From Mustelus asterias (Eukaryota): a stretch of DNA of 64,000 nucleotides. Below are positions 12,001 through 30,000 of this stretch, in pieces. Position 1 is the stretch's first letter; every line of letters starts with the position of its first letter. The DNA is taken from the NCBI RefSeq assembly GCF_964213995.1, contig NC_135822.1:60202001-60266000 (forward strand), in the 5' to 3' direction. A program made the position numbers.

Positions 12001-15000
12001 TAAACGAAGGGAGGGAAGAGAAACGTTTAATTTGAATAAAAAGAACCCCCCCCCCCCCACACGCTCATCTGGAACATTTAATTTTCAGGCCGCTCGGCCA
12101 ATGGCGAGCCGCAGCCCTGAGACGTTGGCCAATGAACATGGGGCGACATTTAATTGACAGGCGATGCAGCCAATGACGAGCCCAGGTCCTGAGGCGGCGC
12201 TGGCCAATAGACGTGGGCTAAGGGGGCGGGCTTGAATCCCCGAAGAAAAAGAGTTAAAATGTCCCAAATATATATATTTTTAAAAAAAATAACGGCTCGG
12301 TGAGGGGAAAATGTGGAATTTTCCTGCCTTCGAATTGATTTTTAAAAAATAATAAAGACATTTTGGGGGGGGGGGGGGAGGTGATGTTCATTCGTCATAG
12401 AGACGGTTGACGGCACAATTCCATCTGTTTCCGGTGGCTGACGTCAGCAGGAGAGCCGTTGAGAGAGAGGCAGAGGAGCGCGCGAGGGAGCTGTAGGTAG
12501 AGAGAAAAAATAATCGCTTCAATTCCGGCTAAAAAACCACCTCTCCGAGCCGCTTAGGTATTGCTCACTTCGTCGCTTCGATCCGAACCCTCCTTTTTTT
12601 TCTTAGTTGGGTTTTATCCAGTGATCGTGTTTAGTGAGGGTGCGGGTGGAACACGAGGCCGTTGCGAGGCGCGGCCGCCATTTTACTGTTGTTTCTTCCC
12701 CCACCCCCTTCTCTCTCCCCTAATGTTTTGTTCCGTAATGGAGGCCGGCTCAGGCTCGGCGGCGGCTTTAATCCTCGCCGCCTCCTCTCGCAGCACGGCG
12801 CCTGTTTCTTTTTTTCTTCTCCCCCTCTGTACCTTCCACCCTCCCGCGTGTTTTTATTTTCCGCTGTAGTTGTCGGCTCTCTCACACACGCACACGAGGT
12901 CTGGCGAGGCGGGTGGAGTGGAGTTCCCGCTCTCTCTTTCTCTCCGCGGCTTTTCTTTCCCCTTTCGCGCCCCGGGCCTGGATTAGGTAGACGCGTGTTG
13001 GGGGGGGGAGGGGATGGGATCTGTAATTTTAGGCGAAAACTGGATGGATTTGGAGAGGGATTTTCCTTCCCCTTTTTTCTTTCTCCTCTTTTCTTTCTCC
13101 TCAGCCTGGGCTCACGGCTGGCATACAGAATTGATCTCTCTTTCTCCTCCTACAACGTGGTCCTTTCTTCAGCACCCTTACGAGGCCTCGGGTCTGCGTG
13201 AGGTTTGCACGTCCCGTCCCCCCCGCTCTAACCTGGTGTTGTTAAAACTCATACTGGGTTTTCTCCCACAGTCCAAAGATGTGTAGGTTAGGTAGATTGG
13301 CCATGCAAAATTGTCCCTTAACCTACACGTTTTTGGACGCTAAGGGGCAATTTAGCATAGCCAATCCACCTTAACCTACACATTTTTGGACGCTAAGGTG
13401 GATTGGCTATGCTAAATTGCCCCTTAGCGTCCAAAATGTGTAGGTTAAGGTGGATTGGCCATGCTAAATTGCCCCTTGGTGTCCAAAAATGTGCAGGTTA
13501 AGGTGGATTGGCCATGCTAAATTTAAATTGCCCTTTTTGTGTCGGGGATTCGCAGGCCAACTATGTGGGGTTACGGGGATAGAGCTTGGGTGGGATAGTG
13601 GTCGGTGCAGGCACGATGGGCTGAGTGGCCTCTTTCTGCCATGCAGGGATTCTATGACTCTAAGGCATCAATCATGGTCCTGTGTAACTGGAACCATATG
13701 GCTGCACCTGCATACAATTTACAATATTTTGTGGTCTCTTGCCATTTTCTTGATTAAACTTCCATTCATGGGAGTGAATGGGTGAATTTCATTCTCAACA
13801 TTAACTATATTAAAATGAGCTCAAAAAATTAATATTGCAAATGCCTGCTACTAGTAACCCAATATGGCCGAGTTAATCAGATCTTCAATCTAGTACTGTT
13901 AATATTACTCTTGGTCTCAGCCCAGGTTTATTTTAATTGTGAATAACAAATGTTCTGTTGGTTTGAGGGTATCAGGGTTGATATTACGGTAAATATCCAT
14001 TTAGTTTGTTTCATGTCTTCAGTAATACTCCAGGTTGTCTTTAAGCATTTATTTGGTCCAAACTTGTTGATTTTTGACACTGCTAGTATAGCGTGATCTT
14101 TCTATGTTACATGTATTCCTTGCTTTGCTGACCAGGTGAAATCACTTCTTGTGAACAACTGTATTTCCTGAATGGCTTCAGTTCATAAGTACTTCGCTGG
14201 TTGTAACGTGTTTTGTGTTTGCTTAAAATGTGTGAAAACTGCTGTGCAAATGTAGATTTCTGTCTAATCAAATTATTTTGACTTTATTTTCCAGACTTTG
14301 TTTCTGAGATACCAGTGATTCAGACTTTAAAATGGATGAAGATTTTGTTGTCCGTGTCCGTGGGCTTCCATGGTCCTGCACTGCTGATGAAGTGTTGCAC
14401 TTCTTCTCAGGTTTTGTGAATTAATCTGAATGATTGCTTTTAAGGAAATGTAGAATTCTTAAGTTGAGGGTGATTTACAGGTTTGAATTGTCTGGGAGTC
14501 TAGGCAAATTAGTTGGCAACAGTAAAGCATTGAATTTAAGTGGTACAGGAATTGGTGAGAAATTAATCATTCCTTGTGCATTGAGATTCATATGTGATAA
14601 TTGCTTGCTTCTAAAGAATACTTGTCTCTTCTCCCATGGCACATTACAGTTTCATGCAACCATTACTGAATTGAGAAAGCACTCTTCTTTACCCAGAAAT
14701 AAGTAAAAGCTGCATGCAGTTTGGACCTTGTTCTAAAAATTGTTACAGCTATTGACATTCAGAAAGTGTAACATGGTAAGATATGGGAACAGAAATGGGC
14801 CGTTTGGCCTATCAACTCTGCCATTCAAGGAGACTGGTCTGATCATCTTCAAGTCCATTTTCTCGTTTTTCCCCATAACCTTTGATTCTCTTATTGATTA
14901 AAGTCTTATTAGCCTCGAACATACTTAACCCAGCCTCTATAGCTCTGCGGTAAAGCATTCCACACATTCACTGCGCTCAGGAAAAAGTCCTCCTCACCTC

Positions 15001-27000: not shown

Positions 27001-30000
27001 TAACTGTTTGAAGCTTCAGGTATTAGATCTGATGGGAAAGGAAAAATTGTTTTGATAATTTTGGACTTGTGTGAATGTGGCAAATCAAAGTAAACATCTA
27101 GTGCAAAGCCTCCTTTTGATGAATTCTTACATTTTATTATTTTAACTAAACTAAATCTAACTTTAGATCACCTTTAAAATATTCTCAGATGAACAAGTTG
27201 TGTGATTGTGAATGCTATTTTCTACTTTGGTGGTACCATTTAAATAAAAAAAAGTGGGGAAGGGTTTAACTTGGTATTCTTTCTACCGTATTTACCAGAA
27301 ACTACAGGGCCACCAATGAATGTCCACACTTCATCCAATTTAAGGTTGTGTTGTCACATGTAGAAATGTGCGGTTATGGGCATCTGTTAGAACATCTTTT
27401 AGTTTTGTTTTTTTTTTTTTGTCCCATTTGTTTGCTCATGAGACCACTGCTGCAAATACTGTTCCGATTTCTTTCATGTTTTAGCTGTCCTTTAGTTGTT
27501 TTTCCCTATTGCACCCTCTGCCCACTCATAACAGCTGATGGGAATTTTCTCAGTTGGGTTGAAATGGTACATCTTATTTTGACTGGCTGGAATGCTTTAA
27601 CAGATAAAAGCCAAGAAGCAGCTGTTAGGCTATTAGTGGGTTGAGCTGTCAGTTCTCCAGAAATTTGGCATTGGAAATCCCGGTGAACATGTTTTTCTTC
27701 AGCAGTTACTATGTTGATTTTTTACGTCTGTCTGGTTCACATGGTTTTTAACCTTGATTCTTAATACTTTGACTGTTAGCAATGTAGTTTTAAAAATGAG
27801 AAGTGTATCTTTGTACCTTTCTAAAAGGTGCTTTTTGGTTACCATGCTTTGTTCAGTGGGACATATTGACTTTGACACTTAGTTGAATATGCTTCTGAAA
27901 CCTGTACATTTTTTCAACATCTGAAAGAGATGACTTACTGTACATTTCTAATGGTGAATATAATAAAGTGTAATTTCAGAAATATGTTAATAGGGTGAGA
28001 TTTGTTCAGGGCTTCAAAGGGAAGGTTGCTCAAGTGGTCTCCAGTCAATCCTTGTGTGTGTGAGTGGGGCCAGTTGCTTTGTATATTTGAATGTGTTTTA
28101 GGGCAGGATAACAAACTTAAGTGGCAGGCAACGGTAACATTAGAAGCACAACATGGTTGGAATTTTGAATGCATTACCTGAAGTAGTGATGGCTACAGAT
28201 GTACTGATAGTATTCAAAGGGGAGTTGGGCATAAACATGGGAGGAAAATGGGGGAGGTGGGGAGAGCAGAGGAGTGGGTTGAATTATCTCTGGAGCTGTG
28301 CTATTCTTGGAGGACAGCGTACAGAGCTTTTTTTTCCCCCAGCTATAAAGAGTGACAAAATCTGGTATCAGTAACATAATAGAGCTTGAGCTCCCGACTG
28401 AGCCCGAAATATTGGGCTTTATCTTGAGTGCAGAAAGTATATACCTCTGGATTGCAACCTTTCTCCATTATAGAATCCAAGTTTTAAAAGGTCCAAGCGC
28501 GAACTGGTTTTCTTTTCTGGTCATGTGCACCAAGTAACCAGATTGACGTGCTTCAAAGCTAGAAGGAATTGCAATTACTCTGCCTGGAGATCCTCAATTT
28601 TGCCCTTACAGGACCACACAACGTTGAATCAGAGATGATTTCAGATCTTTGTGCCAACCTTTGTTTTGATCAATATCATACTTTGAGCCAGTGCTCACAA
28701 ATTGGAATTCAGTAACATCGTGATCAATCCTACAGCACAAGAGATTGAAAGCAAAACTGAACACCAAGCATGCTATGTATTTTCATTACATATGAATATA
28801 GGAAGCAGAAATAGGCTGTTTGGCCCTGCTGGACTGCCTGCCATTCAATGAGATTATATGGCTGATTCGTTTTGAATTCCACATTGCCATCTACTCCCAG
28901 TAATCTTTGATACCCTTGCCTATCAAGAATCATTCTACCTTTGCTTAAATGTGCAATTACCCTGTTTCCACCACCAACTGAAGAAAAACTTCTCACCTGC
29001 TGTAATGGTGATCCATCCCTAATTTTAAAGTAAAAGGTCTCGCAACACCAGGTATAAGTCCAACCGGTTTATTTGGAATCACAAGCTTTCGGAGCACTGC
29101 TTCATCAGGTGAGTTTTACTACTATGCCCACCCACAGTCCAATGCTGACATCTTCACATCATGCCTAATTTTTAAAATCAGTGCCTCTTAGTTCTGGACT
29201 TGCCATTAGGAGAAATACCCTTACCCTGTCCACCTTTTGAAGATCGAATCATAGAAGCTCCTGAAAAAGCTACCCAGAGAGTCCTATTCTCCAGCCCTAA
29301 CTCCATCACCCTTTGAATTCATCACTTTCAGATACGTATCCAGTTCTCTTGAAACCTCCAATGGATTTTGCCTCTTCCACTCTCCAAGGCAGCACATTCC
29401 AAATCCCAACAATTGAGGAAATAAGTTTCTCCTCATCTCACTCCTAGCTCTCTTGCTGACCGTCTTGAAATTGTGGACTCCCCCCCCCCCCCCCCCCAGT
29501 CACTGACATACCAACTAATAGGTACAGAATATCTATCCGCCCCCCTGTCAAAATTGTTTACAATTTTGAGCACCTCATTAAGGTAATCTCTGCTCCAACG
29601 GGAAAAATCCCAATTTCTTTTTTCCTAACGTCTAATCCCTCATTCCTGGAACCATTCTTGTAAACCTTTGCACTCTTGTGCTTTTGCATCCTCCCTTAGA
29701 TAAGCTGCCAGAACTGACCACAGTAGTACAAATGTGGTCTGACCAATGATTTGCAGAGATGTCGCACCACTTCCTTGCTTTTATACTCATGCCTCGTTTA
29801 GGCCTTCAACAGTTTTGACTTGCCTGGGCAGCTTCAGGGAACTATGCACTTGAACCTTGAGGTCCAAATATACAACATCCACAGCACTCATCACTGTCAC
29901 CTCATCAAATAATTCAGTTAAATTTGTTAAGACATGATTTGTCCTTGACAAAGCCATATTGACTGTATTAACACTATTTAATCTCTGATCTCCATCAGTT

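What the first reader, a model, noticed from the sequence alone, without database searches (positions are those of the whole stretch)
12450..27967. hnRNP H-family gene between MOB1A and MTHFD2: candidate fourth 2R ohnolog with three qRRMs and an H3-like body
Seen: an intact 461-aa, three-qRRM hnRNP H/F gene, head-to-head with MOB1A and upstream of MTHFD2. Known, from memory: human MOB1A and MTHFD2 are divergent neighbours on 2p13 with no hnRNP gene between them. The spliced family members sit in the paralogous blocks RUFY1-HNRNPH1 (5q35), RUFY2-HNRNPH3 (10q21) and RUFY3-GRSF1-MOB1B (4q13, GRSF1 divergent from MOB1B). The protein looks mosaic. [42 protein letters not shown] and the C-terminal GWR resemble HNRNPH3, while LPVD, EFATH and the retained qRRM1 resemble HNRNPH1 (human H3 has no qRRM1). 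Inference: this is the 2p13-block ohnolog, kept in cartilaginous fish and lost in mammals, and it may preserve the ancestral architecture. It could be the ortholog of fish genes labelled hnrnph1l.
Basis: partly seen in the sequence, partly recalled or inferred. Interest (0 to 1): 0.8.

Follow-up and report, generated by a model that had tools for sequence, protein, structure and literature searches.

The report
Extra hnRNP H gene of sharks
An intact gene for a G-tract RNA-binding splicing factor of the hnRNP H family lies between MOB1 and MTHFD2 in this shark-like genome; it is an old third branch of that family that only cartilaginous fishes seem to have kept.

Summary
On the + strand, 11 coding exons (14332-26776) all have AG/GT borders and sum to 1386 nt, which is 461 codons plus a stop. 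Exon by exon they match the two halves of human hnRNP H/F qRRM1, qRRM2 and qRRM3. A MOB1 gene runs divergently upstream. MTHFD2, not MTHFD2L, lies downstream.

The gene is the ortholog of nine predicted chondrichthyan proteins, named 'H3-like', 'H-like' or 'H2-like' (81-96% identical, chimaera included). These form their own clade (100/100). It lies outside an H3 clade and an H1 clade that each hold cartilaginous and bony vertebrates. No protein from outside the Chondrichthyes scored like them.

The best reading is an ancient paralog, probably the fourth 2R copy of the MOB1A-MTHFD2 block, lost in bony vertebrates. A shark-specific copy of H3 is disfavoured but not firmly excluded (AU p 0.226, then 0.036).

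- 'hnrnph1l' genes are H1-type.
- Shark, fish and frog H3 also keep qRRM1.

Synteny in other species could not be checked. The exons were never joined.

The parts
14332..14410 (+). coding exon A: start codon and first half of qRRM1 (RGLPW)
   Evidence: in-frame TGA at 14305-14307 upstream of the ATG; a possible acceptor at 14295 implies at least one non-coding 5' exon upstream
15673..15828 (+). coding exon B: second half of qRRM1
   Evidence: human hnRNP H 69.6 bits, F 68.3, GRSF1 45.3; RRM_1 E 0.0031
16579..16722 (+). coding exon C: linker and first half of qRRM2 (RGLPF)
19869..20007 (+). coding exon D: second half of qRRM2
   Evidence: 42 of 45 residues as in human hnRNP H, my count of the printed alignment; RRM_1 E 1.1e-6
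22122..22312 (+). coding exon E: end of qRRM2 and start of the Gly/Tyr/Arg-rich linker
   Evidence: G+Y 30%
22738..22836 (+). coding exon F: Gly/Tyr-rich linker
   Evidence: G+Y 44%
23088..23209 (+). coding exon G: first half of qRRM3 (RGLPF)
23646..23781 (+). coding exon H: second half of qRRM3
   Evidence: (H' 66.5 bits, F 65.8, GRSF1 58.3)
25233..25346 (+). coding exon I: end of qRRM3 (HRYIE) and start of the C-terminal Gly/Tyr/Met-rich tail
26267..26374 (+). coding exon J: 108-nt Gly/Tyr/Asn-rich exon; a frame-preserving cassette absent from the Pristiophorus isoform P0001
   Evidence: gap in P0001; G+Y 46%
26679..26776 (+). coding exon K: C-terminal tail and stop codon (26774-26776)
27962..27967 (+). 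AATAAA, likely polyadenylation signal (another at 27243)
11001..13000 (.). CpG-rich spacer between the MOB1 start and the hnRNP gene: probable bidirectional promoter; holds a 91-bp x 3.5 tandem repeat (11524-11839)
   Evidence: (CpG o/e 0.73-1.12); promoter function is inferred
11159..11172 (-). MOB1 coding exon 1 (start codon at 11172, donor GTAAGT)
3975..4141 (-). MOB1 coding exon 2 (borders read by hand)
   Evidence: (MOB1A 105.2 bits, MOB1B 104.0)
47713..47913 (+). stretch of an MTHFD2 exon that matches the human protein
   Evidence: human MTHFD2 91.6 bits, MTHFD2L chain 7qei 80.3
56404..56535 (+). stretch of an MTHFD2 exon that matches the human protein
   Evidence: MTHFD2 85.9 bits, 41 of 44 identical; MTHFD2L 66.0 bits, 30 of 44; my counts of the printed alignments

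Best explanation
The locus is a working, spliced gene of the hnRNP H/F family. The protein has three quasi-RRMs, each split over two exons. A Gly/Tyr/Arg-rich linker separates qRRM2 from qRRM3, and a Gly/Tyr/Asn/Met-rich tail follows qRRM3. By analogy with hnRNP H/F, it most likely binds runs of three G in pre-mRNA through its qRRMs and so steers alternative splicing and polyadenylation, while the low-complexity parts mediate protein contacts. This function is inferred and was not tested.

In evolutionary terms it is the ortholog of the chondrichthyan genes that databases call 'hnRNP H3-like', 'H-like' or 'H2-like'. That group is a third gnathostome lineage of the family beside H1 and H3. It was present in the common ancestor of chimaeras, sharks and rays, it evolves slowly, and it has no detectable counterpart among bony-vertebrate proteins.

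Its place is head to head with MOB1 and next to MTHFD2. This mirrors the human GRSF1-MOB1B pair (recalled). The most likely origin is therefore the fourth copy left by the two early vertebrate genome duplications, the copy of the MOB1A-MTHFD2 block, later lost in the bony-vertebrate stem.
For: Shown here.

Gene and domains:
- The gene model is intact.
- All six qRRM half-exons match the right halves of solved human hnRNP H/F qRRMs.
- The words RGLP[W/F], [S/T]GEA and HRYIE recur in each qRRM (for qRRM2 the last one spans the D/E junction).
- An AlphaFold model of the stand-in ortholog P0001 shows three beta-alpha-beta-beta-alpha-beta blocks (about residues 5-82, 105-180, 290-365) and two low-confidence stretches (181-289, 365-424).

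Orthology:
- Each of the 11 exons is nearest to the nine 'G1' proteins. The summed per-exon identities are 434/452 to Scyliorhinus torazame P0004, 430/452 to Rhincodon P0002 and 367/452 to the chimaera P0006.
- The group means are 67.6% for shark H3, 60.2% for bony H3, about 61-62% for H1 and 27.7% for a GRSF1.

Distinct lineage:
- A profile of the nine proteins scores them at 876-1033 bits. The next protein, a shark H3, scores 663, and the best non-chondrichthyan scores 617. This was 2336 hits among 7994 scored candidates, of which 120 were listed.
- With an H3 profile, 46 proteins rank above the best G1 member, nearly all of them named H3 and including teleosts. G1 scores 661-701 bits, similar to H1 at 655-676.
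- In the careful ML trees G1 is 100/100, shark H3 100/100 (51 rows) and 100/99 (55 rows), bony H3 100/97 (51 rows) and 100/96 (55 rows), and H1 100/100. The split {all H3}|{G1, H1, lamprey} has 99/95 with 51 rows and 100/97 with 55 rows.
- Both halves of the alignment place G1 outside H3.
- The AU test rejects G1 + shark H1 (p 3.6e-5). It gives p 0.036 for G1 + shark H3 with the better-sampled set.

Separate loci:
- In Rhincodon and S. torazame, G1 and H3 lie on contigs of different length (17.4 vs 52.6 Mb; 143.7 vs 200.5 Mb).
- In Pristis and Mobula, the same holds for G1 and 'H1, like'.

Block identity: the downstream gene is MTHFD2-type rather than MTHFD2L-type in both exons tested.

Constraint: the nine orthologs are 87-95% identical to P0001 across sharks, rays and a chimaera.
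Against: - The first AU test (51 rows) did not reject G1 + shark H3 (p 0.226). The second is only marginal (0.036).
- Strictly diagnostic columns are few: 2 for H3 monophyly, 1 for G1 + shark H3 and 1 for the third pairing.
- The position of G1 relative to H1, H3 and the lamprey protein is unresolved (62/7 and 81/47). The trees have no usable root, because the one named GRSF1 was too long a branch.
- MOB1A versus MOB1B is undecided.
- The human paralogy map (RUFY1-HNRNPH1, RUFY2-HNRNPH3, RUFY3-GRSF1-MOB1B, MOB1A-MTHFD2) is recalled, not tested.
- 'Absent from bony vertebrates' rests on predicted proteins only. Only the candidates sharing the most words were scored, and no genome of a bony vertebrate could be searched.
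- The trees use database orthologs as stand-ins, not the window's own product.
- Binding of G-tracts and expression are untested.
Confidence: 0.65

Rival explanations
1. A duplicate of HNRNPH3 specific to cartilaginous fishes. An intron-containing copy of H3 arose in the chondrichthyan stem, landed between MOB1 and MTHFD2, diverged quickly at first and then slowed down.
For: - The group is known only from chondrichthyans.
- Shark H3 is its nearest group by overall identity (67.6% against 60-62% for the others) and clearly so in exons E, G and I.
- Five consensus columns unite G1 with all H3 against H1.
- The AU test with 51 rows did not reject G1 + shark H3 (p 0.226).
Against: - The free ML trees put shark H3 with bony H3 to the exclusion of G1 (99/95 and 100/97).
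- Both alignment halves agree with that.
- AU p 0.036 with denser H3 sampling.
- Fast-evolving teleost H3 outscores G1 against an H3 profile.
- qRRM1 of G1 lacks the states shared by shark and bony H3 (columns 43 and 70).
- A chance landing exactly at the position that mirrors GRSF1-MOB1B (recalled) would be a coincidence.
Confidence: 0.17
2. An old paralog, but not a 2R ohnolog. The copy arose by a local or segmental duplication before or after the genome duplications. The weak grouping with the lamprey protein could hint at another history. Its place next to MOB1 would then not reflect block paralogy.
For: - The order of branching among G1, H1, H3 and the lamprey protein is unresolved.
- No rooting was possible.
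- The paralogon argument is recalled, not tested.
Against: - The downstream neighbour is MTHFD2-type and the upstream neighbour is a MOB1 gene. This is the pair that is adjacent in human 2p13 (recalled).
- Another family member, GRSF1, pairs with the other MOB1 gene in human (recalled).
Confidence: 0.1
3. The gene is not lost in bony vertebrates. An ortholog exists there but is unannotated, very divergent or hidden below the 120 rows listed.
For: - Only 7994 word-sharing candidates were scored and only 120 of 2336 hits listed.
- Only proteins of 233-881 aa were searched.
- No eukaryotic genome collection was available.
Against: - A true ortholog should outscore paralogs against a G1 profile. 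Yet every listed non-chondrichthyan hit is named H or H3 or groups with them.
- The H3-profile search found none either.
Confidence: 0.07
4. A decaying copy or a gene-prediction artefact.
For: No transcript evidence was available for this window.
Against: - The frame is open over 11 exons with canonical splice sites.
- Identity to orthologs is 81-96%, including a chimaera.
- Branches inside the clade are short.
Confidence: 0.01

Closest known systems
HNRNPH3 (hnRNP 2H9)
   Same: - It is the nearest named group by identity (shark H3 67.6%).
- The linker, the start of qRRM3 and the C-terminal end resemble shark H3.
- Databases name most orthologs 'H3-like'.
   Different: - It forms a separate clade outside the H3 of cartilaginous and bony vertebrates together.
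- The same species carry a true H3 on another contig.
- qRRM1 is nearer H1.
- Its genomic neighbours are MOB1 and MTHFD2. Human H3 lies next to RUFY2 (recalled).
HNRNPH1 / fish 'hnrnph1l' / HNRNPH2
   Same: - Three qRRMs and the same exon-wise domain layout.
- The qRRM1 exons are 68-75% identical.
- The best PDB matches are hnRNP H chains.
   Different: - The H1 clade, which includes every 'H1, like' protein sampled, excludes it at 100/100. The AU test rejects a union with shark H1 (p 3.6e-5).
- None of the nine G1 proteins carries the precomputed Pfam family PF08080 that most bony-vertebrate H1 rows carry.
HNRNPF
   Same: Three qRRMs. Per-exon PDB scores are close to those for hnRNP H.
   Different: - The second half of human F's qRRM3 follows the H/H' pattern, not the pattern of this gene (alignments).
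- Apart from a lamprey protein that carries the F name (570 bits), no F-named protein is among the best 120 hits of the G1 profile.
- No gnathostome F-named protein was in hand, so F was not placed in a tree.
GRSF1
   Same: - It belongs to the same qRRM family (PDB matches to GRSF1 qRRMs).
- In human it lies head to head with the other MOB1 gene (recalled), as this gene does with its MOB1 neighbour.
   Different: - It is only 27.7% identical to the one named GRSF1 in hand.
- That branch is very long (4.9 changes per column) and could not be placed.

Membership tests
hnRNP H/F (quasi-RRM) family | Three quasi-RRM domains in the order qRRM1-qRRM2-linker-qRRM3 | tested here: met
   Exons A/B, C/D and G/H match the halves of solved human qRRM1, 2 and 3. 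There are three folded blocks in the model of ortholog P0001 (domain pLDDT about 60-80, overall 49.6).
hnRNP H/F (quasi-RRM) family | Gly/Tyr-rich low-complexity regions between qRRM2 and qRRM3 and at the C-terminus | tested here: met
   G+Y is 30-46% in exons E, F, G, J and K, against 4-18% in exons A-D and H.
hnRNP H/F (quasi-RRM) family | Conserved loop words of qRRMs (RGLP-aromatic, S/T-GEA, HRY-I/V-E). That these contact the G-tract is recalled from the hnRNP F structures. | tested here: met
   Present in each of the three qRRMs. The third word of qRRM2 spans the D/E splice junction.
hnRNP H/F (quasi-RRM) family | Binding of GGG tracts in RNA | not testable with these tools
   Inferred from similarity only. 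G-tract binding by hnRNP F is stated in the abstract of PMC3575826.
HNRNPH3 orthologs | Groups inside the clade of H3 from cartilaginous and bony vertebrates | tested here: not met
   The split {all H3}|{G1, H1, lamprey} has 99/95 and 100/97. A union with shark H3 costs 16-18 lnL units, AU p 0.226 and 0.036.
HNRNPH1 / hnrnph1l orthologs | Groups inside the H1 clade | tested here: not met
   The H1 clade is 100/100 without G1. AU p 3.6e-5.
2R ohnolog of the MOB1A-MTHFD2 block | Lies in the block: MTHFD2 (not MTHFD2L) and MOB1A (not MOB1B) as neighbours | tested here: inconclusive
   MTHFD2: met (91.6 vs 80.3 bits and 85.9 vs 66.0 bits). MOB1A vs MOB1B: 105.2 vs 104.0 bits, not decisive.
2R ohnolog of the MOB1A-MTHFD2 block | Split from its paralogs before the split of cartilaginous and bony vertebrates | tested here: inconclusive
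   Branch supports say yes. AU gives 0.226 and then 0.036 against the alternative. No root was obtained.
2R ohnolog of the MOB1A-MTHFD2 block | The paralogs lie in the three sister blocks of one ancestral linkage group | not testable with these tools
   The human positions of RUFY1-HNRNPH1, RUFY2-HNRNPH3 and RUFY3-GRSF1-MOB1B are recalled. No eukaryotic genome context was on hand.
2R ohnolog of the MOB1A-MTHFD2 block | The same genome holds separate H1- and H3-type genes | tested here: inconclusive
   Shown for other chondrichthyans through contigs of different length. It cannot be shown for the window's own genome from 64 kb.

The most novel reading that the evidence does not exclude
The ancestral jawed vertebrate had four spliced hnRNP H-type genes, one in each of the four sister blocks left by the two genome duplications. 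The ancestral unit was a linked RUFY - hnRNP H - MOB1 group. Bony vertebrates lost the copy beside MOB1A. Cartilaginous fishes have kept it almost unchanged for the whole of their history (more than 400 million years by recall). A conserved splicing regulator of G-tract RNA, missing from every model vertebrate, would therefore exist only in sharks, rays and chimaeras.
Probability: 0.6. Interest if true: 0.5.

Novelty: new member of a known kind. Interest (0 to 1): 0.4.

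Why it matters
hnRNP H1, H2, H3, F and GRSF1 are much-studied regulators of splicing, polyadenylation and mitochondrial RNA. The list of family members has been drawn from mammals.

A further, slowly evolving member restricted to cartilaginous fishes has several consequences:
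- It corrects the inconsistent names in current annotations, where one gene is called H3-like, H-like or H2-like.
- It shows that qRRM1 of H3 was lost late rather than gained in this gene.
- It adds a clean case of an ohnolog kept in chondrichthyans and lost in bony vertebrates.
- It supports an ancestral linkage of an hnRNP H gene with a MOB1 gene.

This is a modest advance. Such lineage-specific retentions are known by the hundred, and the protein's mechanism is expected to be that of its relatives.

None of the nine library searches turned up a paper on this gene. The whale-shark genome paper has no occurrence of 'hnRNP' in its main text. Its supplementary tables, and those of other shark genome papers, could list the gene family and could not be seen.

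Tried and rejected
- Rooting with the only named GRSF1 (Astyanax P0100). The branch was 4.9 changes per column with odd composition, and it attached to the G1 stem with support 17-19, which is uninformative.
- Counting strictly diagnostic alignment columns. There were too few to decide (2, 1 and 1).
- Testing for a mosaic or gene-converted history with separate trees of the N- and C-terminal halves. Both put G1 outside H3, so there is no sign of conversion.
- The representatives search with stand-in P0001. It gave 150 unnamed proteins. Their origin is unknown and could be human, so none was used. As a result no invertebrate outgroup, no shark GRSF1 and no hnRNP F entered the trees.
- Callorhinchus 'H2' P0019 looked like an H1-type N-terminus on an H3-type body and sat alone at the base of H1. 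It was dropped from later trees.
- Takifugu and Salmo H3 (long branch, odd composition) were dropped.
- Looking for other genes between the hnRNP gene and MTHFD2. Of 10 long ORFs sent to Pfam (8 of them from 28-40.4 kb), only reverse-transcriptase fragments matched.
- The Rfam scan of the whole window gave 0 matches.
- The structure model of P0001 has mean pLDDT 49.6, so no fold search was made on it.
- No complex prediction was made, because no binding claim is made.

Full report
**Scope and rules.** The window has no N. I do not take it for human: the gene it carries has its closest relatives in sharks (see below). The joined protein was never built, printed or searched. Where a full-length sequence was needed (profiles, trees, a fold), I used named database proteins of other cartilaginous fishes as stand-ins. 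Every total given for the window is a sum of per-exon numbers.

**The observation.** Stop-to-stop frames of the + strand show a series of hnRNP H-like peptides.
- With splice sites added, they make 11 coding exons between 14332 and 26776.
- All 10 introns are GT...AG and the phases are continuous.
- The exons sum to 1386 nt, i.e. 461 codons plus TAA.
- The ATG at 14332 is preceded by an in-frame TGA 27 nt upstream.
- AATAAA lies at 27243 and 27962.
- Introns are 251-3146 nt long.

**Domains.**
- Pfam RRM_1 matches 3 of the 10 exon peptides sent at E<0.01. Exon K was not sent, and only exon D passes the curated cut-off. This is expected when each domain is cut in two.
- Against solved structures, each half-exon finds the matching half of human qRRM1, qRRM2 or qRRM3. 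The bit scores are listed below.

| Exon | Part matched | Best matches (bits) |
|---|---|---|
| A | qRRM1, first half | hnRNP H 52.5 |
| B | qRRM1, second half | H 69.6, F 68.3, GRSF1 45.3 |
| C | qRRM2, first half | H 78.2 |
| D | qRRM2, second half | H 80.4, F 74.7 |
| G | qRRM3, first half | H' 36.6 |
| H | qRRM3, second half | H' 66.5, F 65.8, GRSF1 58.3 |

- For exons A and C the figure is the score against the two-domain chain 6dhs (qRRM1-qRRM2), in which both domains are matched; the best single-domain chains give 35.2 (2lxu) and 60.3 (hnRNP H2, 6dg1).
- The loop words RGLP[W/F], [S/T]GEA and HRYIE recur in each domain.
- Exons E-G and I-K are 27-46% Gly+Tyr.
- A model of the stand-in ortholog P0001 shows three beta-alpha-beta-beta-alpha-beta blocks and two unstructured stretches. 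Its overall confidence is low (pLDDT 49.6).

**Neighbours.**
- On the minus strand, a MOB1 start codon lies at 11172 with a GTAAGT donor. Exon 2 is at about 3975-4141. That exon does not tell MOB1A from MOB1B (105.2 vs 104.0 bits).
- The kilobase between the two genes is CpG-rich (o/e 0.73-1.12), which suggests a shared bidirectional promoter (inferred).
- Downstream on the + strand, two exons match human MTHFD2 better than MTHFD2L (91.6 vs 80.3 bits and 85.9 vs 66.0 bits).
- Between the hnRNP gene and MTHFD2 I found only reverse-transcriptase debris among the ORFs tested.

**Relatives.** Exon E, searched against longer proteins, gave 25 hits among 52 candidates:

| Group | Hits | Names given by the sources | Identity to exon E |
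|---|---|---|---|
| G1 (chondrichthyan) | 9 | 'H3-like', 'H-like', 'H2-like' | 78-97% |
| H3-type (sharks, rays, two amphibians) | 12 | mostly H3 | 68-79% |
| 'H1, like' (rays) | 3 | 'H1, like' | 61% |
| Unnamed | 1 | none | 74% |

- Every one of the 11 exons is nearest to G1. The summed identities are 434/452 (96.0%) to Scyliorhinus torazame, 430/452 to Rhincodon and 367/452 to the chimaera Callorhinchus.
- The group means are 67.6% for shark H3, 60.2% for bony H3, 61-62% for H1, 62.8% for a lamprey protein and 27.7% for a GRSF1.
- The window's gene is therefore the G1 gene of a shark, probably a galeomorph judging by these identities.

**Is G1 a lineage of its own?**
- A G1 profile scores the nine members at 876-1033 bits. 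The next protein, a ray H3 (Rhinoraja), scores 663 and the best non-chondrichthyan 617. This was 2336 hits among 7994 scored candidates, with 120 listed.
- With an H3 profile, 46 proteins outrank the best G1 member. Nearly all are named H3, and teleost H3 is among them. G1 scores like H1.
- I built trees from named proteins only. The first used 52 of the 121 proteins then in hand, one isoform per gene, spread over taxa.
- The second used 51 rows after dropping the chimeric-looking Callorhinchus P0019.
- The third used 55 rows after dropping two long teleost rows and adding gar, sturgeon, lungfish, bat and frog H3 and one more shark H3.
- In both careful trees G1 is 100/100 and H1 (cartilaginous + bony + H2) is 100/100. 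Shark H3 joins bony H3 on one side of a branch with 99/95 (51 rows) and 100/97 (55 rows).
- Trees of the N-terminal and C-terminal halves agree with this.
- AU tests:

| Constraint | Rows | lnL loss | p-AU |
|---|---|---|---|
| G1 + shark H1 | 55 | 54.4 | 3.6e-5 |
| G1 + shark H3 | 51 | 16.4 | 0.226 |
| G1 + shark H3 | 55 | 17.6 | 0.036 |

- A shark-specific origin from H3 is therefore disfavoured but not firmly excluded.
- The order among G1, H1, H3 and the lamprey protein is unresolved, and I could not root the tree.

**Separate loci.** Within single species, G1 and H3 (Rhincodon, S. torazame) and G1 and 'H1, like' (Pristis, Mobula) sit on contigs of different length. G1 is thus not a relocated H3 or H1.

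- 'H1, like' (hnrnph1l) proteins of gar, bichir and five chondrichthyans fall in the H1 clade, so G1 is not their ortholog.
- Shark and frog H3 keep qRRM1 (read directly). The three-qRRM layout is therefore the family norm and not something only this gene preserves.
- The mosaic impression is correct as a description. It fits a slowly evolving third lineage that keeps old states, while qRRM1 of H3 drifted.

**Interpretation.**
- Shown: an intact, constrained gene; membership of the qRRM family; orthology to the chondrichthyan 'H3-like' genes; a clade separate from H1 and H3; and a position between a MOB1 gene and MTHFD2.
- Inferred: G-tract binding and a role in splicing; a bidirectional promoter; and an origin in the two early genome duplications with later loss in bony vertebrates.
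- The last point leans on the human map as I recall it. There MOB1A and MTHFD2 are neighbours at 2p13, GRSF1 lies head to head with MOB1B at 4q13, RUFY1 lies next to HNRNPH1 and RUFY2 next to HNRNPH3. No tool here could check synteny in any other eukaryote.

**Literature.** Nine full-text searches found no paper on this gene or on the paralogy of the family. Of the papers opened:
- I saw passages of PMC3575826 (the abstract states that hnRNP F recognises three consecutive guanines).
- I saw passages of PMC13573673.
- I saw passages of PMC8455134, which has no 'hnRNP' in its main text.

Supplements were closed and may list the gene family.

**Verdict.** This is a real and tidy finding of moderate interest. 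It is a new, unnamed member of a well-known protein family, probably the fourth ohnolog, kept only by cartilaginous fishes.

Noticed in passing
window 11524-11839: A 91-bp unit repeated 3.5 times (85% matches) in the CpG-rich spacer between the MOB1 start and the hnRNP gene. Each unit holds two CCAAT-like words, which would suit a bidirectional promoter.
   Followed up: partly
window 13290-13523: A 53-bp tandem repeat of 4.4 copies, just downstream of the CpG-rich stretch, in the presumed first intron or 5' region of the hnRNP gene.
   Followed up: no
window 7614-8680 (minus) and 37299-37601 (minus): Reverse-transcriptase fragments (Pfam RVT_1, E 1e-5 and 9e-8). This is LINE debris in MOB1 intron 1 and in the spacer before MTHFD2.
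   Followed up: partly
window, many places, e.g. 38437-38769, 42028-42303, 53800-54069, 58552-58830, 62248-62463: A short interspersed element recurs on both strands and gives the same long open translation in the ORF lists. It was not classified. The Rfam scan found no tRNA-like or other RNA family.
   Followed up: no
protein P0019 (Callorhinchus milii, UniRef name 'H2', 401 aa): It reads like an H1-type N-terminus joined to an H3-type body and sits alone at the base of the H1 clade. It is possibly a chimeric transcript assembly.
   Followed up: partly
window 26267-26374 (exon J); alignment A1: Exon J is 108 nt with the same phase on both sides. It is missing from the Pristiophorus isoform P0001, so it is probably a cassette exon. 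S. torazame isoform P0004 instead carries an extra 36-residue insert before it.
   Followed up: partly
window 40014-40421 (+): A candidate MTHFD2 first exon, with a presequence-like open frame in a GC-rich stretch (GC 0.61). It lies about 12 kb downstream of the hnRNP gene's end.
   Followed up: no
Pfam column: The precomputed family PF08080 is listed for most bony-vertebrate H1 proteins. It is listed for none of the chondrichthyan 'H1, like', H3 or G1 proteins. PF26250 is listed for some G1 proteins only.
   Followed up: no
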